Notes: a model not told the origin generated them from the sequence alone. A stretch of DNA of 64,000 nucleotides from Patescibacteria group bacterium (GCA_022711495.1 JAKLEX010000001.1:436882-500881); one strand, 5' to 3'. Shown: positions 29,732 to 44,624, numbered from the stretch's first letter. Numbers and translations: made by a program.

Positions 29732-31270
29732 ATGGACAACGATTTTCCCATTAGTTATGCACAGGCGATTTGGAAACGCAAAAAGCTGTTAATCGGATTA
29801 TTTATAGGCATATTTTTAGCCGTCGGATTTTCCCTGCGAGCTTATCATCTGGGCTCACAATCTCTCTGGATTGACGAGGGTTACACCATAAATGCAAGCT
29901 TAGCCATAGAGGAACACGGCTATCCGCTGCTCGGTTCTGGTGAATTTTACAATCAAGGACTGGGCCTGGGTTATCTGACTGCCGGATTTATGGGAATCTT
30001 CGGCTTTGATCAATTTTCGCCTTGGAGTGCTCGAGTTCCCTCGGTAATTTTTGGAGTACTCACGATAATCGCCGGATTTTTATTGGCCAGAAAACTTTTC
30101 CCCGAAACGGCCGTACCGTGGATAACTGGAGTTCTTCTCACCTTTTCAACTTGGGAAATCGCCTGGTCCAGACAGGCCCGTGGATATGTCGCTTTGCAAT
30201 TTTTTATTATCCTTTCACTTTACTTCTTCCAGAAATGGCTGGAGAGCAAATCAAAAAAATATCTGGCTTATTTTGTTCTGCTCTTTTTAGGCGCGTATCT
30301 GTCGCACACAATTGCGCCACTTTTCGTACCGGCATATATTGTAATTTTTATCTTATACACGATACTTCATCCGGAAAATCGACCGACCAGAAAACAAATG
30401 GCAACCGCCGGAATTATCGGTGTCATTCTGGTGATTGGTTATCTGTGGATCAGTGAAATAGATCTAATTGGTTACAATTACTCAAAAATTTATTTGGATT
30501 ATCTTCTGAAAGAACTTTGGCTGTTTGTGTTTTTATCCGCCATCGCCGTGATCGCGATGATCTTTGACAAAAAACGTTTCTGGCCAATTATCTTTTTGCT
30601 CTCCGTGATATTGATACCTCTAACCATAATTATGGAATACGGACAGGTCGCGCAAATCCGATATTTGTTTCCGCTATTCCCTTTTATGATTATGCTATCG
30701 GCCTACCCGGTTAGTCTGTTGATACAACAAGTCGGTAAAAAAATATTTAGGAGTTTCAACGGAAGTCGGCTGACTATAAATTTATTCTCCGTGTTGCTTA
30801 GCGTAATTATTTTCGGAAGTCATTTAACTTTTGCCACAAAAACCACGTATAATTTAGAGTGGGATTCCCCTCAACCAAATTTTAAATCTGCCTATTCCTT
30901 GATCGCCAAAATAAAGGGTCAGAATGACTTGATCGTATCTCCTTACGCCATGATGACTAAAATTTATCTCGGCGGTGAAGGTCTTTGGTTACCAGTGAGT
31001 CTTACGGGTAGGAAAGATGATCTTGAAATACTCATCGTCGATGGCAAAGATTATTATACTGGAGCAGAAATGGTGGCAAATATAGAACAATTAGATGAAA
31101 TTTTAACGAAACAAACGGGCTTTGTTGTTTTAGATGGAATGGCTTGTAATCGACTCATAAAAGGCTGCGATTCCATTGCAAAATATCCGACAGTAAAACA
31201 GATATATGGATCTGGCACAGGATTAAGTGGAATTGGAATATTTCATTTTGAGACGAAAAAGACAAAATAA
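29732..31270 (+). CDS. Glycosyltransferase family 39 / ArnT-like polytopic membrane transferase
   Basis: The N-terminus ...LRAYHLGSQSLWIDEGYTINASLAIEEHGYP has the extracytoplasmic DE motif after TM1 that typifies GT-C PMT/ArnT enzymes. There are about 12 TM segments. Confidence 0.6.
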   Translation: MDNDFPISYAQAIWKRKKLLIGLFIGIFLAVGFSLRAYHLGSQSLWIDEGYTINASLAIEEHGYPLLGSGEFYNQGLGLGYLTAGFMGIFGFDQFSPWSARVPSVIFGVLTIIAGFLLARKLFPETAVPWITGVLLTFSTWEIAWSRQARGYVALQFFIILSLYFFQKWLESKSKKYLAYFVLLFLGAYLSHTIAPLFVPAYIVIFILYTILHPENRPTRKQMATAGIIGVILVIGYLWISEIDLIGYNYSKIYLDYLLKELWLFVFLSAIAVIAMIFDKKRFWPIIFLLSVILIPLTIIMEYGQVAQIRYLFPLFPFMIMLSAYPVSLLIQQVGKKIFRSFNGSRLTINLFSVLLSVIIFGSHLTFATKTTYNLEWDSPQPNFKSAYSLIAKIKGQNDLIVSPYAMMTKIYLGGEGLWLPVSLTGRKDDLEILIVDGKDYYTGAEMVANIEQLDEILTKQTGFVVLDGMACNRLIKGCDSIAKYPTVKQIYGSGTGLSGIGIFHFETKKTK

Positions 31271-31274
31271 AAAG

Positions 31275-33452
31275 ATGAATAAGGAAATGTTGATAACGAG
31301 AATACTACTTTTAATCGGAACTATTGGTGCGGCAATTTTATTCTTTGTTTCCACATTTATTCTGGTCAAAACCCTGACGATTTTAATAATTATTTCCATA
31401 ACTTATTATTTCAAAAAGTTTGATCACGAATGGGCGATCTCGCTATTAAGGAAAGTGGCGGAGATAAAATTTAACTGGTCGTGGCTAAATTCCATAATCA
31501 AAAAAATAAGAGGGGTAAGGGTAAGTAAGGGGAAATTATTAAGGATAGTTTCTTGGTTATTTTTGTTTTGTTTGGTTATCTTAACTCTTTCTCAATTTGA
31601 TCTTTTCAAAAAGATCGGCTTCCGATTAGATGAGAATGGAAATATAACTTTGATTATCTTGGCGATTATTTTGGGGTTTATCACTTTTTATGTAAACAGA
31701 AAAAAGATTGGGGCCGAAATAGATAAAGAACAAGATGAAGAGGTGCTGGCAGAACAAAAAAGATCGGGCGAATTTTCTGAAAAATTTCCGGGAATAAACA
31801 GGATTCCGATTTTGAGAGGCCTTGTAAGATGGCTGTATAAAGAGGGGTGGTGGTCTAGTATTTGCGTTCTTGTCGTCTTGGTTTTTGCTTCTTCACTAAT
31901 TTATCCGAATCTTGGAGGGGCAGATCTTTATCATGATGAAAGTTGGCATATTAATGTTATAGACAGCCTGATTAGGGGCGATGGTTTTTATTTGAGAAAC
32001 TATATTACAGATGAGCCCACAACGAGTTACGATCATGGATACTTAACTAATTTAGGTAGTTATTTTTTTTATTCTCTTTTCCCGGGATCCATATTTTGGA
32101 TAAGATTTTTTGTCGCAACGATAAGTTTATTAAACCTTCTCCTCATTTATCTAATTTTCAAATCTTATGTTCCGAAATTAATCAGCTTATTAATAAGCTT
32201 CTTCACCTCATATAATATTATATTCCTATACATGGCCAGATTCTTAAGGCCATATCCATTGTTTTTGACCTTTTATCTTTTAGTTTTTTATTTTTTAATC
32301 CGATTACCCGGGCACACAGAAAAAGAAGATAAAAAATCTCTTTACCTATCATTGGCAGGCATACTAGTTTTCTCTATCGGGGCTCTCATTGAAAGAGAAA
32401 TGGCCAAGATACTATTCCTGCTACTGCCGTTATGCTCGGTTCCCCTAATAATTAATCACCGAGAGGTTGTGTTCGGATTATTTAAAAAAATAAATAAAAA
32501 GATAATCTTTATAATTATTTTTTTAATAATCATCTTGCTCCTATTTTTAGATTCTTTCAACATCATACACTTATCAATCGTGATTAAACAAATTCCCGAG
32601 CAACTTTCACTACAAACCCTTTTAAATCCAAACTACGACTATTACTATTATTTATTAGGTGCTCAGATGAGAGGAATTATATTATCTGCTCTTTTATTCA
32701 TATTTGGGACGGCATACTTAGTTTATTCCAGTGTAGTTAAAAATAAATTTTATACTTTTTGTCTACTCATTTTTGCTCTTGTTCCCTTCATAATAAGCGT
32801 ATACTTTTTGAAAACGTCTGAGGATTTTAGATATATTTACCACCTGATTCCGTTCTTCGCGGCCATAATTATTATAGGAATCTATATAATATCTATTTTT
32901 ATGTTCAATAGAAAAAATATGAGATTTATTTTTTGTATTTTCTTTCTCTTGTTTATGACCTCAAAGCCCCTGGTTCCCTTCTTGGAAAATTCGAACCCAC
33001 TATTCATCAAGTCTATAACGAAATGGGAAAATGATGATGGCAAGACCTATCTACATAGACGAGCAGTTGCCCCGGATTATACTAGGGCCTACGATTATCT
33101 TAATGAGAATCAGGAGCCAAGAGACGTCGTAATAATTAACGAGGCGTCTTGGAATCTTAAACCCCAAAAAGATGTGAGTTATTATTCAGTTGATAGTCTG
33201 TGGAATTATAGTAAAAATTACATAAATTCTCGAGATGGAACTATCATTGATTTTTTTGATCTGGTAAAAGAAAATGATGGCGGCAAAATGTGGTTTTTAG
33301 GTGCTTATGTTCACATGCTTGATAATAATGTAAATGAGTATCTTTTGAAAAACTGCAAAAATGTGGCGGGGGGGTTAAATATAAAGATGTATAATTATAC
33401 TTCATATTATGAGAATCGCTTTTATTGGCCGAATCTATTCTTGTGTGACTAA
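31275..33452 (+). CDS. Large polytopic membrane protein, possibly a second GT-C (GT39/ArnT-like) transferase
   Basis: About 726 aa with many TM segments. An HDESWHIN motif follows an early TM helix. The sequence is AT-rich and low-complexity. Start chosen at ATG 31275. Confidence 0.4.
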   Translation: MNKEMLITRILLLIGTIGAAILFFVSTFILVKTLTILIIISITYYFKKFDHEWAISLLRKVAEIKFNWSWLNSIIKKIRGVRVSKGKLLRIVSWLFLFCLVILTLSQFDLFKKIGFRLDENGNITLIILAIILGFITFYVNRKKIGAEIDKEQDEEVLAEQKRSGEFSEKFPGINRIPILRGLVRWLYKEGWWSSICVLVVLVFASSLIYPNLGGADLYHDESWHINVIDSLIRGDGFYLRNYITDEPTTSYDHGYLTNLGSYFFYSLFPGSIFWIRFFVATISLLNLLLIYLIFKSYVPKLISLLISFFTSYNIIFLYMARFLRPYPLFLTFYLLVFYFLIRLPGHTEKEDKKSLYLSLAGILVFSIGALIEREMAKILFLLLPLCSVPLIINHREVVFGLFKKINKKIIFIIIFLIIILLLFLDSFNIIHLSIVIKQIPEQLSLQTLLNPNYDYYYYLLGAQMRGIILSALLFIFGTAYLVYSSVVKNKFYTFCLLIFALVPFIISVYFLKTSEDFRYIYHLIPFFAAIIIIGIYIISIFMFNRKNMRFIFCIFFLLFMTSKPLVPFLENSNPLFIKSITKWENDDGKTYLHRRAVAPDYTRAYDYLNENQEPRDVVIINEASWNLKPQKDVSYYSVDSLWNYSKNYINSRDGTIIDFFDLVKENDGGKMWFLGAYVHMLDNNVNEYLLKNCKNVAGGLNIKMYNYTSYYENRFYWPNLFLCD

Positions 33453-33510
33453 TTTTGTAAAATAAGAACAAATAATGCCGTTGGCAACGGTAGGTGGCCA
33501 AAAATAAAAA

Positions 33511-34737
33511 TCAAACTAGAACTTTTTTGACTTCAATCCAATTTAGAAATAGATAAGGTACATACGAGATTGAAGTTGCAATTGCCGCTCCGCTGGCGCC
33601 ATACCGCGGGATCAAAACAAAATTTAGAATTATATTTAAAATAATAGAGATTGATAAATTGACCGCTCTTTTCTTTGCTAATCCTCTATAGTCCAGAAGT
33701 GAGCTCAGGAATATAGAGTACGAGAACATTATTAAATACGGCATCAATAGCCGCAGCGGAAGGACAGATTCTGCATAATTTTCCCCATAAATCAACGGAA
33801 TAAAAAACCGAGAAAAGAAAATAATCAGAGATGTTATCGACCCAAATACAACCGTATTTATCTTTAATAATTTATAAAACAGCTTTTTCAAAGTTTCTTT
33901 ATTTTCCATATTCATATTCGCAAAGAGAGGCATTACTCCCATAGAAATAGCTATGGCAATATGTGGAATATTCGTTATAAGTTCTTTGGCTACTGAATAA
34001 ATCCCAACTTCGTAGTCCCCCCTAAGGAATCCAATCATAACGGTATCTAATGACGTGGCTATCCAAAAACCCACGCTCACAAAAAACAAAGGAACACTAT
34101 ACCGAAAAATTTCTTTATCAAAATTTTCATTAGAAGGTCCTGCTCCACGATAGAAGTTAAAGTAAAGCAAACAAAATCCGACCGTGGCGGTAATAAGCAG
34201 AGCCAAAGAATATGAATTCACCACGGAGGCTAGGCTGGCCGAAAACATTAAAAACAAAATCGCGAATATCAGTTTTAATCCGTATTCAATAAAATTGATG
34301 ATGAGATTATATTTATTTCTGTGCAGACCAATGAAGACGGCTTTTAGATATTCAGATAGCCCGGATAAAAATATAAGCGGAACGGCCAAGAGAAATAAGT
34401 TCTCCATCTCTGGCCTATCAATTAACATGGCCAAAGGTTTATATAGAATCAACAATACGATAGAAAAAACAAGGCTCAGTAAAATTCTTAACTTAACGGA
34501 AGATTTTAAGACTGAACTAAGTTTTTCTGTCTTATTGTGTTCCGCGACATATTTCATCGCAGAAGTGTTAATTCCCCAATAAGAAAAAAGCAAAATGATT
34601 GACAGGGTTGAGAAAAAGAAAGACCACAGACCGAACTTTTCAACCCCCAGGAATCTGGCCAAAAAGATATTAATTGCGTACACCAGAAGAAAAGTTGTCC
34701 CCTTAGCGAGAAAGGACCAGATTGTTTCCTTGACCAT
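33511..34737 (-). CDS. Wzx-like oligosaccharide flippase (polysaccharide biosynthesis protein, MOP superfamily)
   Basis: About 12 TM segments, with the polysaccharide-biosynthesis-protein pattern FLARFLGVEKFGLWSFFFS. Confidence 0.65.
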   Translation of the reverse strand: MVKETIWSFLAKGTTFLLVYAINIFLARFLGVEKFGLWSFFFSTLSIILLFSYWGINTSAMKYVAEHNKTEKLSSVLKSSVKLRILLSLVFSIVLLILYKPLAMLIDRPEMENLFLLAVPLIFLSGLSEYLKAVFIGLHRNKYNLIINFIEYGLKLIFAILFLMFSASLASVVNSYSLALLITATVGFCLLYFNFYRGAGPSNENFDKEIFRYSVPLFFVSVGFWIATSLDTVMIGFLRGDYEVGIYSVAKELITNIPHIAIAISMGVMPLFANMNMENKETLKKLFYKLLKINTVVFGSITSLIIFFSRFFIPLIYGENYAESVLPLRLLMPYLIMFSYSIFLSSLLDYRGLAKKRAVNLSISIILNIILNFVLIPRYGASGAAIATSISYVPYLFLNWIEVKKVLV

Positions 34738-34779
34738 CTTTCCTCTATTTATTCTTTCTAACGAATTTCCAAGTATCAT

Positions 34780-35784
34780 TTACTTGATAATCTCAAAAAC
34801 CTCATCGATTGATTTGCGATGAGACTGACATATCTTTACTTTATCTGGATAATGACCGACGGCGACAATCATAATAACTGATTCGCTTTTATTTAATTTT
34901 AAGATTTTTCTCAATTTAATATCCTTAGTAAAATCCACAGACCAGTTTAAGCAACATGACCCGATGCCGAGAGCGTGTAAAGAATATACCACGCTCATTG
35001 AAAACATCCCGCCATCAATAAATACTTGGTTTCTTTCATTACTACCACTAAAATGATTTATATCTCCCGCAATGACAAGTATTTTTGAAATTGTGTGATC
35101 AAATCCCCTAATTCCCCCATGCACGGCCAGAATGGATTTGATTAACTTCTCATCAATAACATAATACGCTTTCCACCCTTGCCTATTACACACAGACGGA
35201 GTTTTTGTTGAAAGCCACACGGCCCTCTTAATTAAATCCGGGTCAATTGTCTCTGGAGAAAAATTTCTGATACTATAGCGGGACAAAAAAAATCTTTCCG
35301 GGTCTATCCATCTCGTGACAGACGCCAGCTGCTCTTTAGACTTTTCAATAACTCCCCCGGTCCTCCAATCAGATAAATTGTGGCCCTTTTCTAAGGCAGA
35401 AACTTTCTTGTCTAGGTTTTCAATATGTAGGTTATATCGGCCTATCTTCTTATGGAATTCAACATATTCTCGCAATGTGTGTATCGCATTTTTTACAGGG
35501 ACATCAAACCCATATCTTGGTGAAAATAATTTTATGTTTGTCAAAATCTTCGATATAGTATCCTTTCCCGAAAAAGGCTTGAATTCATCGACGGAAAGAG
35601 ATTTTTCTAGCTTATGGCAATCACGATTCATTAAGGCGTGATACTGCGTTTTATTCCTCGGGTGCCCCCCCATAATAGAATACTTTATATAGCGAGAAAA
35701 GTCATAAAGATAACTAAGCGGAAGAAAAAATAGATTTCGAACTTTGTTAATATTTCTTTTAAGACGGATGATTATTACATTCAT
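34780..35784 (-). CDS. Nitroreductase-family protein (C-terminal nitroreductase fold)
   Basis: C-terminal RAVWLSTKTPSVCNRQGWKAYYV...MIVAVGHYPD resembles the nitroreductase fold. The N-terminal 130 aa are unassigned. Confidence 0.5.
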   Translation of the reverse strand: MNVIIIRLKRNINKVRNLFFLPLSYLYDFSRYIKYSIMGGHPRNKTQYHALMNRDCHKLEKSLSVDEFKPFSGKDTISKILTNIKLFSPRYGFDVPVKNAIHTLREYVEFHKKIGRYNLHIENLDKKVSALEKGHNLSDWRTGGVIEKSKEQLASVTRWIDPERFFLSRYSIRNFSPETIDPDLIKRAVWLSTKTPSVCNRQGWKAYYVIDEKLIKSILAVHGGIRGFDHTISKILVIAGDINHFSGSNERNQVFIDGGMFSMSVVYSLHALGIGSCCLNWSVDFTKDIKLRKILKLNKSESVIMIVAVGHYPDKVKICQSHRKSIDEVFEIIK

Positions 35785-36938
35785 AAAAGCTTTTTCATTA
35801 TTAGATTATTAAAATCTTCTAAATCCTTACTTATCCTGACCAGTCCTCTTTCTATTATTGGGAGATATTTTGACTTCCAGTTAAATAATATCTCCTCTTT
35901 TTTATTTATGATAACACCTAGATTATTTTTTTGCTCTTTCATATCAACATACAAATCCTCAAGGCCAATATAGGATAAAAATAAAAACTTTTTGCTTTTA
36001 TCTCTGGGACAATCCGTCGTCTCAATGGACAAAAAAGGAGTCCTGTTTCTAATGCTAAAGATGGTCCCGTGAAAAGAATCCGTGACATTGAAACTTAATT
36101 CGCCAAATATTTTTGCCCACTGAAATGTGTTAATTACGTGATCAACGTTCAGATCTGTATTAAAGTTATTCGTCAATCCAAGTACTCCGCGATCAGAACT
36201 GGTCACCAGATATCTTTTTATGTGGTCAGGATAATTATCGTGATATATCTGGAGGCCGCAGGGCTTGGGATGTTTTTTAAAAAAAGATAATATCGTGTCT
36301 GGATATGAGACATCTCCATTAATTGGAACAAAAAAGGATGGGTCAGGGGTTATGGTCGCATCATCTCTATTGATAATATTTTTTGTGAACTTATCACGAA
36401 CAGAAACAATCGAAAAATCAGAGATTAAATCATGAATTTTTTCTTTATTTGATTCAAGTAAAGAAACGTCGGTTCCAAACGCGGATGTAGAAAATGAAAT
36501 CTTTCTGGCATCAGTTTTATAAGGTAACCAGTATTGATTGGGAAACGGCGGAAAAGGAAATTTTTTGGTTATTCTCCAAATGCAATCACTTCCGGAGACC
36601 AGAATATCTTCCTTTGACAAAAGCCTTGAAACTTTTTTCAAACTCATTTTTTCTAAGGAAAGAGTCCTGTTGGCATCTTTATTAATCAACTTATACCGAC
36701 GCCACTTTTGCAAACCGCCCCTATTTTGGGGAATGGCACGTAATAACTCATAAACAGAAAAAGAAAGGGGTAATTTATCAATGATCTTAACATCTGAATC
36801 GGGAAACAAAGTCTTGAAATTTAACTGTAGTCCATATGCCTGCAATAATGCTCCCCTGTTTATAACCTTATGATATGTGACAATTCTTATCTTCATTTTA
36901 CTGAATTCCTCGTGGCCTTTATTTTCATAATATTTCAC
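35781..36938 (-). CDS. Polysaccharide pyruvyl transferase family protein
   Basis: N-terminal KIRIVTYHKVINRGALLQAYGLQ matches the PS_pyruv_trans start motif (compare ILTFHRAHNYGAVLQAYALQ). Confidence 0.6.
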   Translation of the reverse strand: MKYYENKGHEEFSKMKIRIVTYHKVINRGALLQAYGLQLNFKTLFPDSDVKIIDKLPLSFSVYELLRAIPQNRGGLQKWRRYKLINKDANRTLSLEKMSLKKVSRLLSKEDILVSGSDCIWRITKKFPFPPFPNQYWLPYKTDARKISFSTSAFGTDVSLLESNKEKIHDLISDFSIVSVRDKFTKNIINRDDATITPDPSFFVPINGDVSYPDTILSFFKKHPKPCGLQIYHDNYPDHIKRYLVTSSDRGVLGLTNNFNTDLNVDHVINTFQWAKIFGELSFNVTDSFHGTIFSIRNRTPFLSIETTDCPRDKSKKFLFLSYIGLEDLYVDMKEQKNNLGVIINKKEEILFNWKSKYLPIIERGLVRISKDLEDFNNLIMKKLL

Positions 36939-38022
36939 TGGCCATTAATGTCTCCCTGACGCATTTACGCCATGAAAATCTCTTGATATTTTCATGGCCA
37001 TTGTTGATAATATTATGTCTTAATTTATCATCTTTTAGGGACTTTTCCATGGCGCTTGCTATTTCACCAATATTATATGGATTGACAGACACACCCCCTT
37101 CTCCAATAATTTCCGGACAAGATGTCACATTTGAAGTGAGAACCGGACAACCACAAGCTTGGGCCTCAAGTATTGGTAAACCAAAGCCCTCATATAGAGA
37201 CAGGTACAAATATAAATCAGCGGCCGAGTATAGGCAAATTAATTCCTCATCTGACACCCTTCTAATAAGAAAGGCTCTGCCCGATAAATTATCCTTTATA
37301 TATTTTTTTATGTCTTCAATCTCCCACAATAAGTTATTCGTTAAATAAATATTGTGCGGTATACGATTTTTTATCTGGTTAAATGCCATCAACATTCTCA
37401 ATATATTTTTTCTCGGACTTAGTGAGCCGCAATAGAATAAAAATGGTTTATCAACATCCAATCTTGACAGGGTTCTTTGTATTAAGTCATGGTCGGCTTG
37501 TTTTTTAAAATAGTCTTCAGCCGCCAAATAGACGACCTTTATTTTTTCAGGATTAATACCCAGACGATCTATAATATCTTGCTTCGTGTACTCTGAGATT
37601 GCGACCGTCTTGCTGGCAAGCCGACAGGATAGTTTCATGAAAACCCTCATATACAATGTATCCCAAAAACGATAAGCTTTTATTTCCCTATTAAAATAAG
37701 CCAAATCTAAAATAATATTTATCTTTTTAAATCTAAAAAATAAATGCGTAAAAGGGATAATATTCTTTGGGTATATAACGGCATCTAATTTTATTTTAAA
37801 TAAATAGGGCAGAATTTTTATATAATCCCAAAATATTTTATTGCTCTTTTTAAGATAAACAACCTTAATATTTTTATAAGCCGTTTTAAAATCTTCCTTA
37901 TCTGTAAATAAAACTAGAGAATTTTCTTTGGAAAAAAAGGCATCAAAAGTCATTAAAAAATTTTCTATATATCTAGTAACGCCCCCTTTTGTCAGTCCTC
38001 TTGCGATAAAACCGATTGTCAT
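36925..38022 (-). CDS. Glycosyltransferase family 4 (GT-B)
   Basis: Carries the EGFGLPILEAQACGCPVLTS motif (the EX7E region). Confidence 0.8.
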   Translation of the reverse strand: MTIGFIARGLTKGGVTRYIENFLMTFDAFFSKENSLVLFTDKEDFKTAYKNIKVVYLKKSNKIFWDYIKILPYLFKIKLDAVIYPKNIIPFTHLFFRFKKINIILDLAYFNREIKAYRFWDTLYMRVFMKLSCRLASKTVAISEYTKQDIIDRLGINPEKIKVVYLAAEDYFKKQADHDLIQRTLSRLDVDKPFLFYCGSLSPRKNILRMLMAFNQIKNRIPHNIYLTNNLLWEIEDIKKYIKDNLSGRAFLIRRVSDEELICLYSAADLYLYLSLYEGFGLPILEAQACGCPVLTSNVTSCPEIIGEGGVSVNPYNIGEIASAMEKSLKDDKLRHNIINNGHENIKRFSWRKCVRETLMASEIL

Positions 38023-38747
38023 ATGGTTGTTTTTCTTACCACAATCAGATAACTCAGCGGAAAGATTTTTTTCATCCCAAAAAATTTATCCAGAGTAAGG
38101 AGGCATCTTTGAATTACAAAATTAATCCAAAATGTTAGCTTGTTGATACCAGGAATATTATATGTTAGACCCAGAAATATCGTCTGAAATATATAACCCT
38201 TAAAAGCCAGCAGTCCCCCCAACTCTTTTATCTCTACAACTTCGAGACGGTTTTCTTCTATAATTTTTTTAAGGGAATATTTAGTAAATCGCCAATAATC
38301 ATGTGGCTCATTGTGGAGGTACCCAAGATACGGCACAGTTATAACGGCGTACCCCCCATCCTTTAAAACTCTACTGATTTCGCTCACGGCTTTAGTTGGG
38401 TTCGGCACATGCTCTAGGACATTCCTAGAAAATACAAAATCATAACGGCCCGAATTGATTTCTAACATATTTTGTATATCTGCAACATACGTCAAGCCGG
38501 GGTGTGTCCTTTCAAAATCCATGCTTTCATAGTCGGCCGTATATTTAGTAAGCACTTTTTTATACAATAAATTACCGGCGCCAGCGTCTAAAACTTTGCC
38601 CTTGCAATACTTTGGCAATAAGGCTCCCAATTCTTTAAAAAGAATCATGTTGCCGGCGGATGTTTTCCAGTAGTGCCAATTATCTCGAAGCCCATAATTC
38701 ATTTTTTTGATATTATTCTTTATCAAATCTTTTATCATAATGTCCAT
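38019..38747 (-). CDS. Class I SAM-dependent methyltransferase
   Basis: Motif I VLDAGAGNLL and a post-I acidic residue are present. Confidence 0.7.
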   Translation of the reverse strand: MDIMIKDLIKNNIKKMNYGLRDNWHYWKTSAGNMILFKELGALLPKYCKGKVLDAGAGNLLYKKVLTKYTADYESMDFERTHPGLTYVADIQNMLEINSGRYDFVFSRNVLEHVPNPTKAVSEISRVLKDGGYAVITVPYLGYLHNEPHDYWRFTKYSLKKIIEENRLEVVEIKELGGLLAFKGYIFQTIFLGLTYNIPGINKLTFWINFVIQRCLLTLDKFFGMKKIFPLSYLIVVRKTTI

Positions 38748-38813
38748 TTTATCTGGAATCTTACTTTAAGTGCCATAATAAAAGCATATAATAGATGCTG
38801 AGTCTGCGCTAAT

Positions 38814-39914
38814 TTATAGATATTTTTGTTTGTATTTATTTGCCGCATTTGCCCAATCTATTTTGGCAGCTAGAAAAAGTGAGGCTGATGATTGACGCTT
38901 TAGTAGTTCAGCGTCTTTATTATACATTTCAATGGCGCCCTTTAATTCTTCGGCAGATCTCATGCTAACGACAAAACCATTATCCTTGACCAGTTCGGCC
39001 GAACCACCAGTATTAGTAGCAATGATCGGCAAACCAACCGCCATGGCTTCCAAAATTGAATTAGACATGCCCTCGTTTAGAGACGGCAAAACAAAGACAT
39101 CTGATTGTTGCAATAATGAAACAATTTCAGAGTGTTCTTTTTTACCAACAAAATTAACGTTTGAATTACATTCTTTCGCTAAAGATTTTAGTCTGGGTGC
39201 CAGATTCCCATCTCCAACTAGGGTTAAAACGACATTTTTCATCCCAGAGATCGCCCTAATTGAATATTCATACCCTTTTCTTTCAATTAACCTGCCGGTA
39301 GAGATTAATCGTAAATTTTTACTTTGAACTTTTGCCGCCGTAGGTTTAAATTCTTCTAAATCAACACCATTATAAATGACCCCGATATCTTGCTTCAGTG
39401 CGGTTTTGAACGCCAAATTTTTTAAATCTTCAGAATTTGCAATTACAGATTTTGCTCTTTTCCAAACTTTTTTGCTCAAAGATTTAAAAATAAGCTTGTC
39501 TAGCCAATAAAATCTCTTGTTATAAAAAGGCACATCGCTACCGCGCAAACTCACAATGTATGGCAAACCAAGTTTCATGGCAATATACCCGCAAGGAATT
39601 CCAAAGAAAGCGTGGCAAAGATCAAACTTGTTTTGCTTCATTAATTTTTTGGCATAGCGGTAGGCTCTCCAAGAATAGAACAAAAGATCTTTATTACTTT
39701 GATAATGTAAATTCCCCCTTTTACCGATATCTAAAAAATGGATTTTTATATTTTTCGAAAATTGCTCAACTTTAAATTCATTTACCGACGAAGTCACCAA
39801 ATCAATTTCGAGATCAGGATCTTTGGCAAATTCCTTCAACAAATAATATGTCGCGTTCCCCGCTCCACCTCCCAGTGGCGGAAATTCGTAATTTAACATG
39901 AGAATTTTTTTCAT
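38814..39914 (-). CDS. Glycosyltransferase family 4 (GT-B)
   Basis: Carries NEGMSNSILEAMAVGLPIIATNTGG. Confidence 0.8.
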   Translation of the reverse strand: MKKILMLNYEFPPLGGGAGNATYYLLKEFAKDPDLEIDLVTSSVNEFKVEQFSKNIKIHFLDIGKRGNLHYQSNKDLLFYSWRAYRYAKKLMKQNKFDLCHAFFGIPCGYIAMKLGLPYIVSLRGSDVPFYNKRFYWLDKLIFKSLSKKVWKRAKSVIANSEDLKNLAFKTALKQDIGVIYNGVDLEEFKPTAAKVQSKNLRLISTGRLIERKGYEYSIRAISGMKNVVLTLVGDGNLAPRLKSLAKECNSNVNFVGKKEHSEIVSLLQQSDVFVLPSLNEGMSNSILEAMAVGLPIIATNTGGSAELVKDNGFVVSMRSAEELKGAIEMYNKDAELLKRQSSASLFLAAKIDWANAANKYKQKYL

Positions 39915-39920
39915 AGGGAT

Positions 39921-40889
39921 CTAAATTTTGAAATATTCTTTATACCAATCAATAAACAAATTGACGGCTTTTTCAACGGAAGTTTTTGGTTTCCAGCCAA
40001 GATTTTTCTCCGTGTATTCAATGTCAGCATAAGTCTCTAAAACATCGCCGGGCTGAATTTCAGTATATTTTTTCATAGCCTTCTTGCCGAGTTCTTTTTC
40101 AAGACATGAAATAAAGTATTCCAATCCGACTGGCTTATTATTCCCCAGATTGAAAATATGATAACCGCCGACCATTTCCAAAGATAAGATGACTCCTTCA
40201 GCGACATCCTCAACATAAGTAAAATCGCGGCGCATCTTACCGAAATTGAAAACCTTGATCTCTTTGCCTTTGCCGATTGAGTCGGCAAAAATCATTGGAG
40301 CCATATCTGGCCGACCCCACGGACCGATAACCGTGAAAAAGCGCAAGCCCGTGGTATTGATACCAAAAAGATGATGATAAGTATAGGCCATCAATTCGTC
40401 AGCTTTCTTTGTCGCCGCATAAAGAGATATCGGCTCATTGACCTGATCGTCCACAGAAAACGGAACTTTCTTATTGTTCCCGTAAACCGAACTTGATGAG
40501 GCATAAACAAAGTCTTTAATATTATTATTCCGAACCGCCTCTAAAATATTTACAAAAGCAACGATGTTTGATTTTACATACGATTGCGGATTTATAAGAC
40601 TGTAACGAACGCCGGCCTGAGCTGCCAAATGACAGATTTTATCAAACTTATTTTCTGTGAAGATCTTTTCGACAAATTTTGGATCGCTTAAATCGCCTCG
40701 ATAAATTTTATAATTGGGATAGCCTTCCAAAATTTTATTTCTGGCCTCCTTAAGACCGGGGTCGTAGTAATCATTAAAATTATCCGCACCAACAACGATT
40801 GCGCCATCGTCTAAAAGTTTCTTAGCAGTATGGAAACCGACAAACCCGGCGCTACCAGTTACTAATATTATTTTGCCCTTTAATCCCAT
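39921..40889 (-). CDS. NAD-dependent epimerase/dehydratase (UDP-glucuronate 4-epimerase-like)
   Basis: GSAGFVGFH Rossmann motif, DNFNDYYD, and the YAATKK catalytic motif. Confidence 0.8.
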   Translation of the reverse strand: MGLKGKIILVTGSAGFVGFHTAKKLLDDGAIVVGADNFNDYYDPGLKEARNKILEGYPNYKIYRGDLSDPKFVEKIFTENKFDKICHLAAQAGVRYSLINPQSYVKSNIVAFVNILEAVRNNNIKDFVYASSSSVYGNNKKVPFSVDDQVNEPISLYAATKKADELMAYTYHHLFGINTTGLRFFTVIGPWGRPDMAPMIFADSIGKGKEIKVFNFGKMRRDFTYVEDVAEGVILSLEMVGGYHIFNLGNNKPVGLEYFISCLEKELGKKAMKKYTEIQPGDVLETYADIEYTEKNLGWKPKTSVEKAVNLFIDWYKEYFKI

Positions 40890-40905
40890 AGCAAATTCGA
40901 AATTA

Positions 40906-41847
40906 TTACTTTTCTATCACCTCCCTTATGTAATATCTTTTCTCATAATGAGAAAGACCGAGATGGATTTTGATGAGAAGATCAATAACGATACCGAAGC
41001 TAAACAAAACGATGGCTGACAACGTCAGAAAAGTTGTTATGTAAAACCAGCCGTTTCTATTCAAACTAATTCCTAAAAAGGTTTTATCATAAATTGTCCA
41101 AAGACCGGAGGCAATAGCCAAAACAAAAGAAATTAAACTCATGTAACCAAAAAAATGCAGCGGTCGTTGAGAAAACTTATAGATGAAGCAGACATAAAGT
41201 AAATCAAGAAGACCGCGAATAGCTTTCGTGTAATTGTATTTACTTTTTCCGTGTTCTCGTAATCGGTCATTAACGATTACTTCCCCGATTTTAAAACCTT
41301 TCCAGCGCAAAAGGGTTACAACGTAACGATGCATCTCTCCACCAATATCCAATGACTTTACCGCCTCTTTTTTATAAGCTCGCAAAGTACAGCCAGAATC
41401 ATTTACCGCGTCTTTAATGAAAAACCTTCTGACGGCCTTGCCAATCAGGGTTAGCAGACAAATTCCCTTTTTATCCTTTCGATCCTTTCTCCAACCGGCG
41501 ACGACATCCAGATTCCCCTCGCGCATTTTTTGAAGCAATTTGGCAAAATCGGCCGGATCGTTCTGGCCGTCGCCGTCTATGGAAATGACAATTTCACCAG
41601 TGGCCATTTTGAAGCCCGCGTCTAGAGCCGTGGCCTGGCCATAATTACGATTCAGGTCAATAATCTTTACATTTGTCAGAGTTTTTAATTCTTCAAGCGA
41701 TCCGTCGTTGCTACCATCATTTATATAAATAATCTCAAAACTGTCAGAAATGGCCGACATTGCGGCTCTTATTTCTTGATCAAGCTTTGTGATGTTCCCT
41801 TTTTCGTTATAAACCGGAACAACAATAGAATAATCCAAATTCTTCAT
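40906..41847 (-). CDS. GT2 polyprenol-phosphate glycosyltransferase (GtrB/ArnC/DPM1-like) with a C-terminal TM pair
   Basis: YSIVVPVYNE, DGSNDGS, DGDGQND and two C-terminal TM helices. Confidence 0.8.
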   Translation of the reverse strand: MKNLDYSIVVPVYNEKGNITKLDQEIRAAMSAISDSFEIIYINDGSNDGSLEELKTLTNVKIIDLNRNYGQATALDAGFKMATGEIVISIDGDGQNDPADFAKLLQKMREGNLDVVAGWRKDRKDKKGICLLTLIGKAVRRFFIKDAVNDSGCTLRAYKKEAVKSLDIGGEMHRYVVTLLRWKGFKIGEVIVNDRLREHGKSKYNYTKAIRGLLDLLYVCFIYKFSQRPLHFFGYMSLISFVLAIASGLWTIYDKTFLGISLNRNGWFYITTFLTLSAIVLFSFGIVIDLLIKIHLGLSHYEKRYYIREVIEK

Positions 41848-41907
41848 ATCTTAACTAATTTACCATTAACACGGCTTCATGTTAAATGATTGGCGCACTT
41901 CAAAAAA

Positions 41908-41952
41908 GTTTTCCAAAAATAAAGGCCCCGAAGCGTATAACGCTCGGGGCCT
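41908..41952 (-). terminator. Strong intrinsic terminator (GGCCCCGAGCG...CGCTTCGGGGCC plus TTTATTTTTGG on the minus strand)
   Basis: A perfect GC-rich stem followed by a T-tract, directly downstream of ORF 41969..42399. Confidence 0.6.
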
Positions 41953-41968
41953 TGTTGTGTTGAAGCGG

Positions 41969-42399
41969 CTAACTTTCGTCGGCGGTAATGGCAGCACCGG
42001 CCCGACCAGCCAGAGCGGACGGATGTGCCCGTCGGTCGCGTTGTTCCTGACATTTGGCGATCAGGTGTTGGCGCGTGGACCACAGATGAGCCAAGTTGCA
42101 TCGAGCAACAAATTCCTGCGCCGTAAGCGCCAGGCTTTTGTGCTGACACAATTCAAACTCGATGGTAATGCCCCGTGCCATATCGATCTGCTGATCGATT
42201 TCCGCGATCTGCTTGCGCAGAGCGCGAATGCCGAGAGCGCCCTTTTCGCCGGTATCGTGACGCTGAACCGAAGGCGAGACCAAGACCGCGCCAGGTTCAA
42301 CAGAAGTCATGGCGTAAAAGTATTCACCGCCGTAGCAGACTGTCGTCGGCAGAATTCCTGCCACCAACATCACCAGCACCAACATTCCGATCACCTTCA
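41969..42399 (-). CDS. GC-rich small secreted hypothetical protein (signal peptide)
   Basis: The RBS AAGGAGAAGGGGG precedes the ATG (MKVIGMLVLVMLVAG...). The gene lies in a ~60% GC patch, and longer ORFs in other frames are judged to be artefacts. Confidence 0.4.
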
Positions 42400-42561
42400 T
42401 TTCCCCCTTCTCCTTTTGTTTCTGTTTGGTTAACCTATTTAACTTCAATACTCTCAATGTGCAAAGTCTAGCGAGAAATTCTACAAGATCAGCTGAAAGC
42501 GTCAACTCCAACTGTTAAAGAAAAGTGGATAAGCTAAAAATAGCGCTAATTTCGGGTATAT

Positions 42562-42606
42562 TTTAAAGAAAATAAAAGCCCCACAAGCCCGTGCTTGTGG
42601 GGGTTA
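42562..42606 (-). terminator. Intrinsic terminator (stem CCCCACAAGC/GCTTGTGGGG, loop CCGT) with TTTTATTTTCTTT on the minus strand
   Basis: A 10-bp GC-rich stem plus a long T-tract, seen in the sequence. Confidence 0.55.
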
Positions 42607-44567: not shown

Positions 44568-44579
44568 GAACCTACTCGC

Positions 44580-44612: not shown

Positions 44613-44624
44613 ATTTAAGAAAAA

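What the first reader, a model, noticed from the sequence alone, without database searches (positions are those of the whole stretch)
29732..41847. Glycan biosynthesis locus pairing two GT-C (GT39/ArnT-like) transferases with a polyprenol-phosphate sugar synthase, flippase, pyruvyl transferase, methyltransferase and epimerase
The gene set comprises a GT2 polyprenol-P-sugar synthase (40906..41847), two polytopic GT39/ArnT-like enzymes (29732..31270 and 31275..33452), a Wzx flippase, two GT4 enzymes, a UDP-sugar epimerase, a SAM methyltransferase and a pyruvyl transferase with a nitroreductase-like partner.

By analogy with ArnC/ArnT, protein O-mannosylation and S-layer glycan pathways, this predicts a lipid-linked sugar donor that GT-C enzymes use on the outer face. 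The target would be a protein or a lipid. A parallel Wzx-flipped oligosaccharide would carry pyruvyl and methyl decorations. In an organism with a minimal metabolism this represents a major investment in surface glycosylation.
Basis: partly seen in the sequence, partly recalled or inferred. Interest (0 to 1): 0.5.

Follow-up and report, generated by a model that had tools for sequence, protein, structure and literature searches.

The report
Surface glycosylation locus with tandem GT-C enzymes
A tiny-genome Paceibacteria (CPR) bacterium carries a conserved gene cluster that builds lipid-linked sugars inside the cell and attaches them outside with two membrane enzymes, probably onto the glycine-tyrosine-repeat surface protein encoded next door, a pairing that recurs in many uncultured bacteria and some archaea.

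Summary
All ten genes exist at the stated coordinates, with the stated families. The one caveat is that the second GT-C scores below Pfam's threshold and is recognised only by profile comparison.

Both refutation tests fail to refute:
- The acidic DE motif is invariant in both GT-C families and lies in the first extracytoplasmic loop.
- The locus architecture recurs in relatives: tandem GT-Cs on one strand, convergent with an operon that starts with an ArnC/GtrB-type GT2.

The core reading is well supported. A polyprenyl-phosphate sugar is made inside, flipped, and used outside by GT-C enzymes. No priming phosphoglycosyltransferase, Wzy or LCP gene lies in the 64-kb window, and none is a recurrent component of 15 related loci. 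GT2 heads the same operon as the GT4s, methyltransferase, pyruvyl transferase and Wzx.

New finding: the gene divergently upstream (28286-29638) encodes a secreted (GY)n-repeat, peptidoglycan-binding protein. A GYGYGYG-containing ORF sits directly beside the GT-C1 homologue in 34 of 108 non-redundant loci, archaeal ones included, and nowhere else in 2 Mb. It is the probable acceptor, by analogy with cnm-pgf.

Verdict: a new variant of multi-component transmembrane glycosylation. Interest is moderate.

The parts
28286..29638 (-). It is a secreted surface protein made of: a Sec signal peptide (…AGIAQA|EF); (GY)n repeats about 10 residues after the predicted cleavage site (GWGYGYGYGYGYGYGF … YGYGYGYGY); a conserved beta-rich domain (…TTHLSDFVVG); a poly-Asp run; and two PG_binding_1 domains joined by a TTTTTTT linker.
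   Evidence: Translation. PG_binding_1 at 72.9 bits, two stretches. No Pfam or NCBIfam model covers the N-terminal 290 residues. Homologues lie divergently upstream of GT-C1 homologues. A GYGYGYG ORF is adjacent to the GT-C1 homologue in 34 of 108 non-redundant loci, and there is none elsewhere in 2.0 Mb. The start at 29638 follows the JGI gene call of 450 aa.
29732..31270 (+). GT-C1: a 512-aa polytopic GT-C glycosyltransferase (Pfam PMT_2) with a C-terminal extracytoplasmic alpha/beta domain. Its predicted catalytic D48-E49 (WIDEGY) lies at the start of the first extracytoplasmic loop helix.
31275..33452 (+). GT-C2: a 725-aa divergent paralogue of GT-C1. It has a 4-TM N-terminal extension, a GT-C core with an invariant YPNLGGxDxYHDES motif (D221-E222), and a conserved C-terminal soluble domain of about 150 aa. 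It starts 4 nt after the GT-C1 stop codon.
   Evidence: PMT_2 scores 21.5 bits, below the cut-off. hhalign against the GT-C1 family gives 99.4% and E 7e-22 with the DE motifs aligned. It has only 4 close homologues among 5.8e9 proteins. A profile search finds 76 representative clusters at E<1e-30 among 1.84e9. A second, large GT-C follows GT-C1 in 14 of 15 related loci. The AF2 model is poor at pLDDT 45.5.
33511..34779 (-). Wzx/MOP-family flippase; last gene of the minus-strand operon.
   Evidence: Polysacc_synt at 125 bits and Polysacc_synt_3 at 89 bits. About 12 TM segments. 76% identical in L001. Across the 15 related loci, Wzx occurs 8 times and LPG_synthase_TM 6 times.
34780..35784 (-). 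Nitroreductase-like flavoprotein (domain at residues 168-311; N-terminal 160 aa unassigned). It is the partner of the pyruvyl transferase.
   Evidence: Nitroreductase at 57 bits. Full-length homologues sit beside a pyruvyl transferase and a flippase on Pseudorhodobacter and E. coli plasmid records.
35781..36938 (-). Polysaccharide pyruvyl transferase.
   Evidence: PS_pyruv_trans at 84.7 bits. It overlaps the next gene by 4 nt.
36925..38022 (-). GT4a: a GT-B glycosyltransferase.
   Evidence: Glycos_transf_1 at 99.9 bits. 64% identical in L001 and 58% in L002, the two loci that also carry close GT-C2 orthologues.
38019..38747 (-). SAM-dependent methyltransferase.
   Evidence: Methyltransf_23 at 51 bits and Methyltransf_11 at 47 bits. 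65% identical in L001 and L002. Methyltransferases account for 15 of the 95 ORFs in related loci.
38814..39914 (-). GT4b: a GT-B glycosyltransferase, conserved next to GT2 or the epimerase in relatives.
   Evidence: Glycos_transf_1 at 113 bits and Glyco_transf_4 at 66 bits. The best NCBIfam match is TuaC at 117 bits, below its cut-off. Orthologues at 46-68% identity lie beside the GT2 or epimerase orthologue in L007, L049, L061, L078 and L081.
39921..40889 (-). NAD-dependent UDP-sugar 4-epimerase (SDR). The substrate is probably a UDP-hexuronate or a UDP-hexose(NAc).
   Evidence: Epimerase at 178 bits. The best solved relative is 5u4q at 6e-109, followed by the B. cereus UDP-GlcA 4-epimerase 6zl6 at 6e-43 and WbgU/WbpP. 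The 75%-identical orthologue in L002 is adjacent to a UDP-glucose/GDP-mannose dehydrogenase gene.
40906..41847 (-). GT2 polyprenyl-phosphate sugar synthase (ArnC/GtrB/PgfS type): a GT-A domain plus two C-terminal TM helices. It is the first gene of the eight-gene minus-strand operon.
   Evidence: Glycos_transf_2 at 101 bits. NCBIfam: PgfS 129 bits and ArnC 127 bits, both below the equivalog cut-offs. Full-length phmmer hits: ArnC 9hwj 7.7e-31, GtrB 5eke 1.5e-29, DPMS 5mlz 1.7e-13. TM helices at 232-250 and 274-292. A homologue lies in the flank of 27 of 45 GT-C1-homologue loci that have at least 12 kb of flank, and 12 are immediate neighbours.

Best explanation
This is a cell-envelope glycosylation locus of the multi-component transmembrane kind. 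It is most like the streptococcal cnm-pgfS-pgfM1-pgfE-pgfM2 arrangement, enlarged by glycan-building and decorating enzymes.

Proposed steps:
1. Inferred from homology: the epimerase supplies a UDP-sugar. The membrane-anchored GT2 transfers it to polyprenyl phosphate on the cytoplasmic face.
2. Inferred from operon structure and from the lack of any priming phosphoglycosyltransferase: the two GT4 enzymes, the methyltransferase and the pyruvyl transferase with its nitroreductase-like partner extend and decorate the same lipid-linked intermediate. They do not build a separate Und-PP-linked polymer.
3. Inferred: Wzx flips the lipid-linked sugar or oligosaccharide.
4. Fold and motif are shown, activity is inferred: the tandem GT-C enzymes use the lipid-linked donor outside the membrane, each with an invariant Asp-Glu pair in the first extracytoplasmic loop.
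5. Inferred from conserved neighbourhood: the acceptor is the secreted protein encoded divergently upstream. It is peptidoglycan-bound, and its (GY)n repeat lies close to the mature N-terminus. The modified site would be in or near that repeat or in its Thr-rich linker.

One GT-C (GT-C1) is the widespread, (GY)n-linked enzyme. The rarer GT-C2 co-varies with GT4a and the methyltransferase, and probably handles the locus-specific part of the glycan.

My confidence by component is about 0.8 for the core (GT2 makes a lipid-linked sugar that GT-C enzymes use extracytoplasmically), about 0.4-0.45 for the (GY)n protein as acceptor, and about 0.4 for a single integrated pathway.
For: - Gene identities.
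- GT-C2: the HDES motif is invariant and aligns onto the GT-C1 DE motif.
- Operon structure: the eight minus-strand genes abut or overlap by 4-14 nt. GT-C1 and GT-C2 are 4 nt apart.
- Architecture in relatives: it is repeated in L001 and L002 and in 13 further loci. A second large GT-C follows GT-C1 in 14 of 15 loci, with GT4 and GT2 at the far end.
- GT2 linkage: a GT2 homologue lies in the flank of 27 of 45 well-flanked loci in the genome set and 14 of 28 in the metagenome set.
- No competing pathway parts: Bac_transf, Glycos_transf_4, Wzy_C and LCP are absent from the 64-kb window. None is among the families present five or more times in the 95 ORFs of 15 related loci. A flippase-type family, Wzx (8) or LPG_synthase_TM (6), accounts for 14 matches.
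- (GY)n neighbour: a GYGYGYG ORF is directly adjacent to the GT-C1 homologue in 24 of the loci fetched up to (the genome-contig scan plus the first GT-C2 relatives) and in 28 of 80 metagenome loci. That is 34 of 108 non-redundant clusters, including ANME-2 and Nanoarchaeota. There are no non-adjacent occurrences in 2.0 Mb. Only the signal peptide and the (GY)n repeat are shared among the different neighbour classes.
- Precedents: the substrate gene cnm sits beside pgfS-pgfM1(PMT_2)-pgfE-pgfM2 (PMC5856776). GtrB with a GT-C enzyme glycosylates disordered Ser/Thr-rich regions of extracytoplasmic proteins (PMC12041528). A Wzx-type flippase is proposed for a C55-P-sugar (PMC8035078).
Against: - No biochemical data exist for any of these proteins.
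- The acceptor is inferred only from gene neighbourhood. About two thirds of GT-C1-homologue loci lack a (GY)n neighbour.
- Three reverse look-ups of (GY)n-protein homologues found glycan loci with large polytopic proteins that do not match the GT-C1 or GT-C2 profiles. One has a weak PMT_2 hit.
- Elongation of a polyprenyl-monophosphate sugar by GT4 enzymes is documented for archaeal Agl pathways rather than for bacteria (my own knowledge).
- A priming enzyme could lie in the roughly 490 kb of the genome that I could not read.
- The Wzx, nitroreductase and pyruvyl-transferase trio also occurs in proteobacterial polysaccharide loci, which are normally Und-PP based.
- (GY)n repeats could bind glycan rather than carry it.
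- The GT-C2 structure could not be modelled.
Confidence: 0.55

Rival explanations
1. Two pathways, essentially the first reader's model. The GT4s, methyltransferase, pyruvyl transferase and Wzx build a Und-PP-linked repeat unit for a secondary cell-wall or capsular heteropolysaccharide. Priming, polymerisation and ligation are done by enzymes encoded elsewhere. GT2 with GT-C1 and GT-C2 only adds side-branch sugars to that polymer outside the membrane, as GacI/GacK/GacL, GtrABC or CsbB/YfhO do. The (GY)n protein then binds the polymer non-covalently through its aromatic repeats.
For: - Wzx is present together with a pyruvyl transferase. The same Wzx, nitroreductase and pyruvyl-transferase trio occurs in proteobacterial polysaccharide loci.
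- Pyruvylated wall polymers that anchor surface proteins are known in Gram-positive bacteria (my own knowledge).
- Extracellular side-branch glycosylation of wall polymers by GT-A, flippase and GT-C is well documented (PMC8035078).
- L001 replaces the pyruvylation cassette with CDP-glycerol-type genes (CTP_transf_like, Gly3P dehydrogenase, CDP-OH_P_transf), which suggests a teichoic-acid-like polymer.
- The low-GC central cassette (0.33-0.37 against 0.43) behaves like a swappable polysaccharide locus.
Against: - No priming phosphoglycosyltransferase, Wzy, chain-length regulator or LCP ligase lies in the 64-kb window, and none is a recurrent component of 15 related loci.
- GT2 is the first gene of the same operon.
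- The only feature shared by all neighbour classes is the signal peptide plus (GY)n. That looks more like a substrate tag than a lectin domain.
- The nearest folds are protein-modifying GT-Cs.
Confidence: 0.3
2. Lipid acceptor. The GT-C enzymes glycosylate a membrane lipid or lipoglycan, ArnT-like or PimE/Emb-like. The GT4 enzymes make the cytoplasmic glycolipid core, which Wzx flips. The GT-Cs then extend it outside with polyprenyl-P-sugar donors. The product would be a lipoglycan that substitutes for lipoteichoic acid.
For: - ArnT is the top Foldseek hit and the only significant sequence-level PDB match.
- The GT2 is as close to ArnC as to PgfS.
- The GT4 enzymes give weak matches to glycolipid-anchor synthases such as IagA/BgsA and diacylglycerol glucosyltransferase.
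- No priming enzyme would be needed.
- The LPG_synthase_TM flippase-like family alternates with Wzx in relatives.
Against: - None of the other arn genes (ArnA, B, D, E, F) is present.
- This model does not explain the conserved (GY)n-protein neighbour.
- All GT4 matches to glycolipid synthases are far below their cut-offs.
Confidence: 0.1
3. Mere co-location. The GT-C pair, the GT2 operon and the (GY)n protein are unrelated surface-biogenesis genes that happen to be neighbours.
For: - Identities between loci are mosaic. GT-C1 is 30-46% identical while neighbouring genes range from 26% to 76%, which shows frequent shuffling.
- Promoter and terminator scans are no better than shuffled sequence.
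Against: - The same order recurs in 15 loci from different Patescibacteria classes.
- GT2 linkage of 50-60% is far above what I estimate for chance in genomes of 0.6-1 Mb; I did not compute a null.
- The strict heptapeptide GYGYGYG occurs 34 times beside the GT-C1 homologue and never elsewhere in 2.0 Mb.
Confidence: 0.03

Closest known systems
Streptococcus mutans Pgf machinery (cnm-pgfS-pgfM1-pgfE-pgfM2) and the streptococcal GtrB/PgtC2 system
   Same: - A membrane-anchored GT-A/GT2 enzyme; NCBIfam's best match for the window GT2 is PgfS.
- A PMT_2-family polytopic protein plus a second paralogous membrane protein.
- A UDP-sugar 4-epimerase.
- A surface-protein gene directly adjacent (PMC5856776).
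- Acceptors there are disordered Ser/Thr-rich extracytoplasmic regions (PMC12041528).
   Different: - The GT2 scores 129 bits against a PgfS cut-off of 500, so it is not an equivalog.
- The window locus adds two GT4s, a methyltransferase, a pyruvyl transferase with a nitroreductase-like partner, and a Wzx flippase in the same operon.
- The candidate acceptor carries a (GY)n repeat and PG_binding_1 domains, not an LPXTG adhesin with Thr-rich B repeats.
- The organism is a CPR bacterium.
Three-component / multi-component transmembrane glycosylation systems (GtrA/B/C; CsbB-GtcA-YfhO; GacI/J/K/L; ArnC-ArnE/F-ArnT; RgtE-RgtA-D)
   Same: A GT-A enzyme makes a C55-P-sugar, a flippase (GtrA-type or Wzx-type) translocates it, and a GT-C enzyme transfers the sugar extracytoplasmically (PMC8035078, PMC11127046). 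The GT2 is similar over its full length to ArnC and GtrB structures, and the GT-C fold is confirmed.
   Different: - Known systems add a monosaccharide to LPS, teichoic acids or wall polysaccharides.
- Here there are two tandem GT-Cs and several cytoplasmic glycan-building and decorating enzymes in one operon.
- No polymer-backbone genes lie nearby.
- A conserved protein neighbour points to a protein acceptor.
Protein O-mannosyltransferases (CAZy GT39; Pmt1/2/4, POMT, actinobacterial Pmt)
   Different: - Pfam PMT (PF02366) is below threshold at 21.5 against 22.7.
- There is no MIR domain.
- At 512 aa it is much shorter than PMTs, and identity is only 11-12%.
- The linked epimerase suggests the donor sugar is not mannose.
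Haloferax volcanii Agl N-glycosylation cluster (AglJ, AglG/I/E, AglP, AglR, AglS, AglB)
   Same: - A GT2 that charges polyprenyl monophosphate (AglJ model, 65 bits), followed by further glycosyltransferases acting on the same lipid.
- A SAM methyltransferase, a Wzx-like flippase and PMT_2-like GT-C enzymes.
- The GT-C1 family is shared with Methanosarcinales, ANME, DPANN and Haloferacaceae archaea.
   Different: - There is no STT3/AglB oligosaccharyltransferase.
- All matches to Agl models are far below their cut-offs (AglJ 65 of 325, Agl23 33 of 126, Agl16 45-67 of 575).
- The host is bacterial.
- The Agl gene roles are cited from my own knowledge, not from a paper read here.

Membership tests
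Multi-component (three-component) transmembrane glycosylation system | Membrane-anchored GT-A/GT2 polyprenyl-phosphate sugar synthase | tested here: met
   Full-length phmmer matches to ArnC (7.7e-31), GtrB sll0501 (1.5e-29) and DPMS (1.7e-13). Two C-terminal TM helices. Enzyme activity was not tested.
Multi-component (three-component) transmembrane glycosylation system | Flippase for the lipid-linked sugar (GtrA-type or Wzx-type) | tested here: inconclusive
   A Wzx/MOP protein is present in the same operon. Its substrate, a monosaccharide or an oligosaccharide and a mono- or diphosphate, cannot be told from sequence. No GtrA-type gene was seen.
Multi-component (three-component) transmembrane glycosylation system | GT-C fold transferase with an acidic motif in the first extracytoplasmic loop | tested here: met
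Multi-component (three-component) transmembrane glycosylation system | Genetic linkage of the GT-A and GT-C partners | tested here: met
   A GT2 homologue lies in the flank of 27 of 45 (genome set) and 14 of 28 (metagenome set) well-flanked GT-C1-homologue loci, and 12 are immediate neighbours.
Pgf-type protein O-glycosylation machinery | PgfS equivalog | tested here: not met
   NF047588 (PgfS) is the best NCBIfam match, but at 129 bits against a cut-off of 500. It is a homologue, not an equivalog.
Pgf-type protein O-glycosylation machinery | PMT_2 membrane protein, a paralogous second membrane protein, and a UDP-sugar 4-epimerase | tested here: met
   PMT_2 at 45 bits for GT-C1, GT-C2 is paralogous (hhalign 99.4%), and Epimerase scores 178 bits.
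Pgf-type protein O-glycosylation machinery | Glycosylated surface-protein substrate, encoded adjacent in cnm-positive strains | not testable with these tools
   A candidate is present (28286-29638) and its adjacency is conserved. Glycosylation itself needs mass spectrometry.
CAZy GT39 protein O-mannosyltransferase (PMT) | PMT domain (PF02366) and a luminal MIR domain | tested here: not met
   PF02366 scores 21.5 bits against a cut-off of 22.7 for GT-C1 and gives nothing for GT-C2. No MIR hit at E<=0.01.
CAZy GT39 protein O-mannosyltransferase (PMT) | Asp-Glu motif in loop 1 | tested here: met
   D48-E49 and D221-E222 are invariant.
ArnT (GT83) lipid A aminoarabinose pathway | ArnT-like GT-C together with ArnC and the ArnA/B/D/E/F genes | tested here: not met
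   ArnT is the top Foldseek hit. The ArnC model scores 127 bits against a cut-off of 529. No ArnA, ArnB, ArnD or ArnE/F homologues are in the locus or the window.
Wzx/Wzy-dependent heteropolysaccharide pathway | Initiating phosphoglycosyltransferase, Wzy polymerase, and a ligase or LCP enzyme alongside Wzx | tested here: not met
   Only Wzx is present. No Bac_transf, Glycos_transf_4, Wzy_C or LytR_cpsA_psr gene is in the 64-kb window, and none is among the families present five or more times in 15 related loci. The rest of the roughly 553-kb genome was not readable.
Archaeal Agl-type N-glycosylation | STT3/AglB oligosaccharyltransferase | tested here: not met
   No STT3 Pfam hit for either GT-C. 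The AglJ, Agl23 and Agl16 models are all far below their cut-offs.

The most novel reading that the evidence does not exclude
The GT-C1 family would be a dedicated glycosyltransferase for a short sequence tag, a (Gly-Tyr)n repeat placed just after the signal peptide of otherwise unrelated secreted proteins, in CPR bacteria and in DPANN and ANME archaea.

Tyrosine is the only hydroxyl-bearing residue in the tag. This would therefore be tyrosine O-glycosylation by a GT-C enzyme from a polyprenyl-phosphate donor, which to my knowledge has not been described as a type of protein glycosylation. It would have a recognisable sequon, shared across the two prokaryotic domains. It might also control self-assembly of the amyloid-prone GY zipper.
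Probability: 0.2. Interest if true: 0.8.

Novelty: new variant of a known kind. Interest (0 to 1): 0.55.

Why it matters
CPR/Patescibacteria live attached to host cells with very small genomes, yet almost nothing is known about their surface chemistry. This locus takes 12-13 kb of a genome of about 550 kb, and its architecture is conserved across several CPR classes. It is therefore likely to produce a major surface determinant.

The conserved pairing of a PMT-like GT-C with (GY)n-tagged secreted proteins gives a concrete, testable enzyme-substrate prediction. It holds in about a third of non-redundant loci, archaeal ones included. The prediction covers which protein is modified, roughly where, and by which enzyme and donor pathway.

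If confirmed, three things follow:
- Pgf/GtrB-type protein glycosylation would extend beyond Firmicutes.
- A recognisable tag would be available for predicting glycoproteins in uncultured lineages.
- A new acceptor chemistry might be revealed.

The Pfam-dark GT-C2 class also marks a divergent GT-C subfamily that current annotation misses.

Tried and rejected
- GT-C2 structure: the alignment has only 4 sequences, and the model has pLDDT 45.5, so it is unusable for fold search. A PDB profile search with the GT-C2 alignment found nothing.
- Promoter and terminator scans gave counts no better than shuffled sequence and were uninformative for operon boundaries.
- Rfam found no RNA element in the locus.
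- Literature searches for Patescibacteria plus GT39, for CPR plus S-layer glycosylation, and for GYGYGY found no prior description. GYGYGY appears only in peptide self-assembly, antibody and eggshell papers.
- Reverse look-ups from three (GY)n-protein homologues (P0277, P0282, P0288) did not find GT-C1 or GT-C2 profile matches next door. They found glycan loci with unassigned polytopic proteins of 549-781 aa, one with a weak PMT_2 hit. The association is therefore not strictly reciprocal.
- I considered Trp C-mannosylation (DPY19-like) because of the 'GWGYGY' start. I rejected it because the Trp is absent from the Moraniibacteria and archaeal classes.
- I considered an STT3-like oligosaccharyltransferase role. 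There is no STT3 Pfam hit.
- I considered strict ArnT or GT39 membership. Both were rejected on the membership tests.

Full report
**Observation.** They belong to the stated families:
- GT-C1 (29732-31270, +): PMT_2, 45 bits.
- Wzx (33511-34779, -): Polysacc_synt, 125 bits.
- Nitroreductase-like protein (34780-35784, -).
- Pyruvyl transferase (35781-36938, -).
- Two GT4 enzymes (36925-38022 and 38814-39914, -).
- SAM methyltransferase (38019-38747, -).
- SDR epimerase (39921-40889, -).
- GT2 (40906-41847, -).

The second polytopic protein (31275-33452, +) reaches only 21.5 bits on PMT_2, below the cut-off of 26.1. Its assignment therefore rests on the profile comparison described below. A protein 100% identical to GT-C1 is named by NCBI as coming from a Candidatus Paceibacterota bacterium. 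The contig is about 553 kb, so the CPR / minimal-genome context is right.

The eight minus-strand genes abut or overlap by 4-14 nt, and GT2 is the first of them. GT-C1 and GT-C2 are 4 nt apart on the plus strand. The centre of the locus (GT-C2 to GT4b) has a GC content of 0.33-0.37, against 0.43 outside. This is typical of a swappable glycan cassette.

**The two GT-C enzymes.** An alignment of 53 GT-C1 homologues has eight invariant positions, including W46, D48 and E49 (WIDEGY). AlphaFold2 with this alignment gives a confident model (pLDDT 93.8, pTM 0.92). TM1 spans residues 9-37, and D48-E49 sit at the start of the first loop helix, residues 47-62. The KRKK stretch before TM1 places that loop outside the cell.

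Fold comparisons for GT-C1:
- Foldseek ranks ArnT first, at E 1e-8.
- By sequence, only ArnT is significant, at 8.7e-7.

GT-C2 has only four close homologues among 5.8 billion proteins. A profile search of 1.84 billion representatives finds 76 at E<1e-30. Its family has an invariant YPNLGGxDxYHDES motif that follows a TM helix, which is itself preceded by a highly charged segment. hhalign against the GT-C1 family gives 99.4% probability and E 7e-22 over 382 columns. It superposes HDES on IDEG and ARFxRxY on WSRQARGY. The GT-C2 structure model failed, with pLDDT 45.5.

Strict GT39 membership is not supported. PF02366 is below its cut-off and there is no MIR domain.

**The donor side.** The GT2 matches ArnC (7.7e-31), GtrB sll0501 (1.5e-29) and DPMS (1.7e-13) over its full length. 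It has the two C-terminal TM helices of that class. NCBIfam's best models are PgfS (129 bits) and ArnC (127 bits), both far below their equivalog cut-offs.

The epimerase's closest solved relative is 5u4q (6e-109). Next are the B. cereus UDP-GlcA 4-epimerase and WbgU/WbpP. In locus L002 its 75%-identical orthologue lies next to a UDP-glucose/GDP-mannose dehydrogenase gene. A hexuronate donor is therefore possible, but this is an inference.

**Co-conservation.** The two closest loci, L001 and L002, keep the same plan: a PG-binding or (GY)n protein on the minus strand, GT-C1 and GT-C2 on the plus strand, then a minus-strand block of flippase, methyltransferases and GT4s that ends at a GT2 (L001) or at an epimerase next to a UDP-sugar dehydrogenase (L002). 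The decoration cassette varies. In L001 it holds CDP-glycerol-type genes instead of the nitroreductase and pyruvyl transferase. In L002 it holds extra methyltransferases and a UDP-sugar dehydrogenase.

A scan of one genome per species returned 78 GT-C1-homologue loci. They come from Patescibacteria and, notably, from Methanosarcinales, ANME, DPANN and Haloferacaceae archaea. A GT2 homologue lies in the fetched flank of 34 of 77 loci, and of 27 of the 45 that have at least 12 kb of flank. Twelve are immediate, usually convergent, neighbours.

In 15 loci with the extended architecture, a second large protein of 600-810 aa follows GT-C1 in 14. Twelve of these 14 match the GT-C1 and/or GT-C2 HMMs, with E down to 1e-49, and the four I scanned against Pfam gave no hit. 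The tandem GT-C arrangement is thus a conserved feature, not a peculiarity of this genome.

**One pathway or two?** Across the minus-strand blocks of those 15 loci (95 ORFs) the recurrent families are:

| Family | ORFs |
|---|---|
| GT4 | 29 |
| GT2 | 17 |
| Methyltransferase | 15 |
| Wzx | 8 |
| LPG_synthase_TM | 6 |
| Epimerase | 5 |

No Bac_transf or Glycos_transf_4 priming enzyme appears among the families with five or more members. The whole 64-kb window also lacks a priming enzyme, Wzy_C and LCP genes.

Four facts favour a single pathway in which the GT2 product is elongated and decorated before flipping:
- GT2 heads the operon.
- GT4b is conserved next to GT2.
- Wzx and an MprF-type TM family together account for 14 matches in the 15 loci.
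- No priming enzyme is found in the locus or the window.

This is not proof. About 490 kb of the genome could not be read. The Wzx, nitroreductase and pyruvyl-transferase trio also occurs in proteobacterial polysaccharide loci.

**The neighbour.** It encodes, in order:
- a Sec signal peptide;
- a (GY)n repeat about 10 residues after the predicted cleavage site;
- a conserved beta-rich domain;
- a poly-Asp run;
- two PG_binding_1 domains joined by seven threonines.

No Pfam, NCBIfam or PDB entry covers its N-terminal 290 residues.

Homologues occupy the same divergent position in eight relatives. The strict heptapeptide GYGYGYG occurs in an ORF directly beside the GT-C1 homologue in 24 of the loci fetched up to that point, namely the genome-contig scan plus the first GT-C2 relatives. 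The ORF is either divergent upstream or, in Moraniibacteria, immediately downstream on the same strand.

An independent scan of metagenome contigs reproduced this in 28 of 80 loci. After collapsing GT-C1 homologues at 90% identity, 34 of 108 evaluable clusters have such a neighbour. There is no GYGYGYG anywhere else in the 2.0 Mb examined. ANME-2 and Nanoarchaeota loci are included.

The neighbours fall into unrelated classes, from 99 aa to 2,328 aa. In the bacterial classes they share only the signal peptide and the (GY)n repeat; in the archaeal loci the repeat lies inside the protein, so (GY)n is the one element common to all. The repeat itself therefore seems to be what is linked to the enzyme.

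Three reverse look-ups found (GY)n proteins beside glycan loci with other large, unassigned polytopic proteins, one with a weak PMT_2 hit. The link is therefore strong but not exclusive.

**Mechanism proposed.**
1. The epimerase and GT2 make a polyprenyl-P-sugar.
2. The GT4s, methyltransferase and pyruvyl transferase (with its nitroreductase-like partner) extend and decorate it on the cytoplasmic face.
3. Wzx flips it.
4. GT-C1 and GT-C2 transfer sugar or glycan outside the membrane to the (GY)n, PG-binding surface protein.

The closest experimental precedent is S. mutans cnm-pgfS-pgfM1-pgfE-pgfM2. There a surface adhesin gene sits beside a membrane GT-A, a PMT_2 protein, an epimerase and a second paralogous membrane protein, all of which are needed for its modification (PMC5856776). 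The GtrB/PgtC2 and Pgf systems glycosylate disordered Ser/Thr-rich extracytoplasmic regions (PMC12041528). Wzx-type flippases are already proposed for C55-P-GlcNAc (PMC8035078).

What is shown: the gene families, the fold, the motifs and the conserved neighbourhoods. What is inferred: the donor sugar, the lipid chemistry, the division of labour between the two GT-Cs, and the acceptor.

**Rivals.**
1. Side-branch glycosylation of a Wzx-dependent wall polymer whose priming, polymerase and ligase genes lie elsewhere, with (GY)n acting as a glycan-binding anchor. I rate this at about 0.3.
2. A lipid or lipoglycan acceptor (ArnT- or PimE-like), at about 0.1.
3. Chance co-location, at about 0.03.

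**Novelty and score.** The core system is a known kind: multi-component transmembrane glycosylation, Pgf-like. What is new:
- its enlarged form with two tandem GT-Cs and glycan-decorating enzymes in CPR bacteria;
- a Pfam-dark GT-C2 subfamily;
- the cross-domain linkage of a PMT-like GT-C family to (GY)n-tagged secreted proteins, for which I found no prior description.

I classify it as a new variant of a known kind, with interest 0.55. The most novel reading not excluded is tyrosine O-glycosylation of a (GY)n tag by a GT-C enzyme, with probability about 0.2.

Noticed in passing
window 33511-36938 (-); L091 (NZ_CP039966.1) 4286-8239; L092 (NZ_CP070932.1) 4405-8109: The trio of Wzx-type flippase, a roughly 335-aa nitroreductase-family protein and a polysaccharide pyruvyl transferase recurs as adjacent genes in proteobacterial polysaccharide loci. 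Examples are a Pseudorhodobacter plasmid and an E. coli record. The nitroreductase-like protein is homologous over its full length (93-96% coverage, 31-35% identity). A flavoprotein paired with a pyruvyl transferase might reduce an enolpyruvyl ether to a lactyl (1-carboxyethyl) ether. That is my speculation.
   Followed up: partly
L023 11524-12606, L047 11481-12584, L049 11515-12549, L054 11486-12616, L065 11505-12593, L077 11482-12552, L083 11493-12569: In seven related loci a conserved protein of about 360 aa is inserted between the two GT-C genes. It has one N-terminal TM helix and a beta-rich extracytoplasmic domain, and the two copies I scanned (L049, L023) gave no Pfam hit. It is absent from the window. 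It could be an acceptor-recognition subunit.
   Followed up: no
15 related loci (alignment A3): Among the 15 related loci, Wzx (Polysacc_synt) matches 8 ORFs and LPG_synthase_TM (the MprF-type TM domain) matches 6. The two families may alternate as the locus flippase. I did not check this locus by locus.
   Followed up: partly
L001 7278-9787: In the closest relative, the nitroreductase and pyruvyl-transferase cassette is replaced by three genes: a cytidylyltransferase (CTP_transf_like), a glycerol-3-phosphate dehydrogenase and a CDP-alcohol phosphatidyltransferase-like gene. This points to glycerol-phosphate rather than pyruvate as the anionic decoration of the same glycan scaffold.
   Followed up: no
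L025, L029, L037, L038, L043, L048, L051, L055, L066-L068, L071, L074: The GT-C1 family (28-32% identity) is shared between Patescibacteria and archaea: Methanosarcinales, Methanolobus, ANME-2, Methanoperedens, DPANN and Haloferacaceae. In several archaeal loci it has an adjacent ArnC/GtrB-type GT2 (L037, L055, L066, L067, L074). In L048 and L051 it has an adjacent G-aromatic repeat protein. This suggests inter-domain transfer of the module.
   Followed up: partly
window 41848-44687: The stretch just beyond the GT2 gene has the highest GC of the window (0.495 at 42-44 kb). It holds only short or mutually overlapping ORFs: 41879-42433(+) overlapping 41969-42511(-), a Pyr_excise gene of 123 aa, and a DUF378 gene. 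No Rfam family matches. About 1.3 kb (42.0-43.3 kb) has no convincing gene.
   Followed up: no
window 44688-48870 (-): Downstream there are more envelope and sugar genes: an unassigned 280-301-aa protein with no Pfam or NCBIfam match, whose N-terminus looks to me like a signal peptide; a PGA_cap (CapA-like) protein; a ROK-family kinase; and a GH1 glycosidase.
   Followed up: no
window 6106-6501 (-): Bacterial RNase P class A RNA scores only just above Rfam's gathering threshold (103.9 against 100 bits). This points to a divergent RNase P RNA.
   Followed up: no
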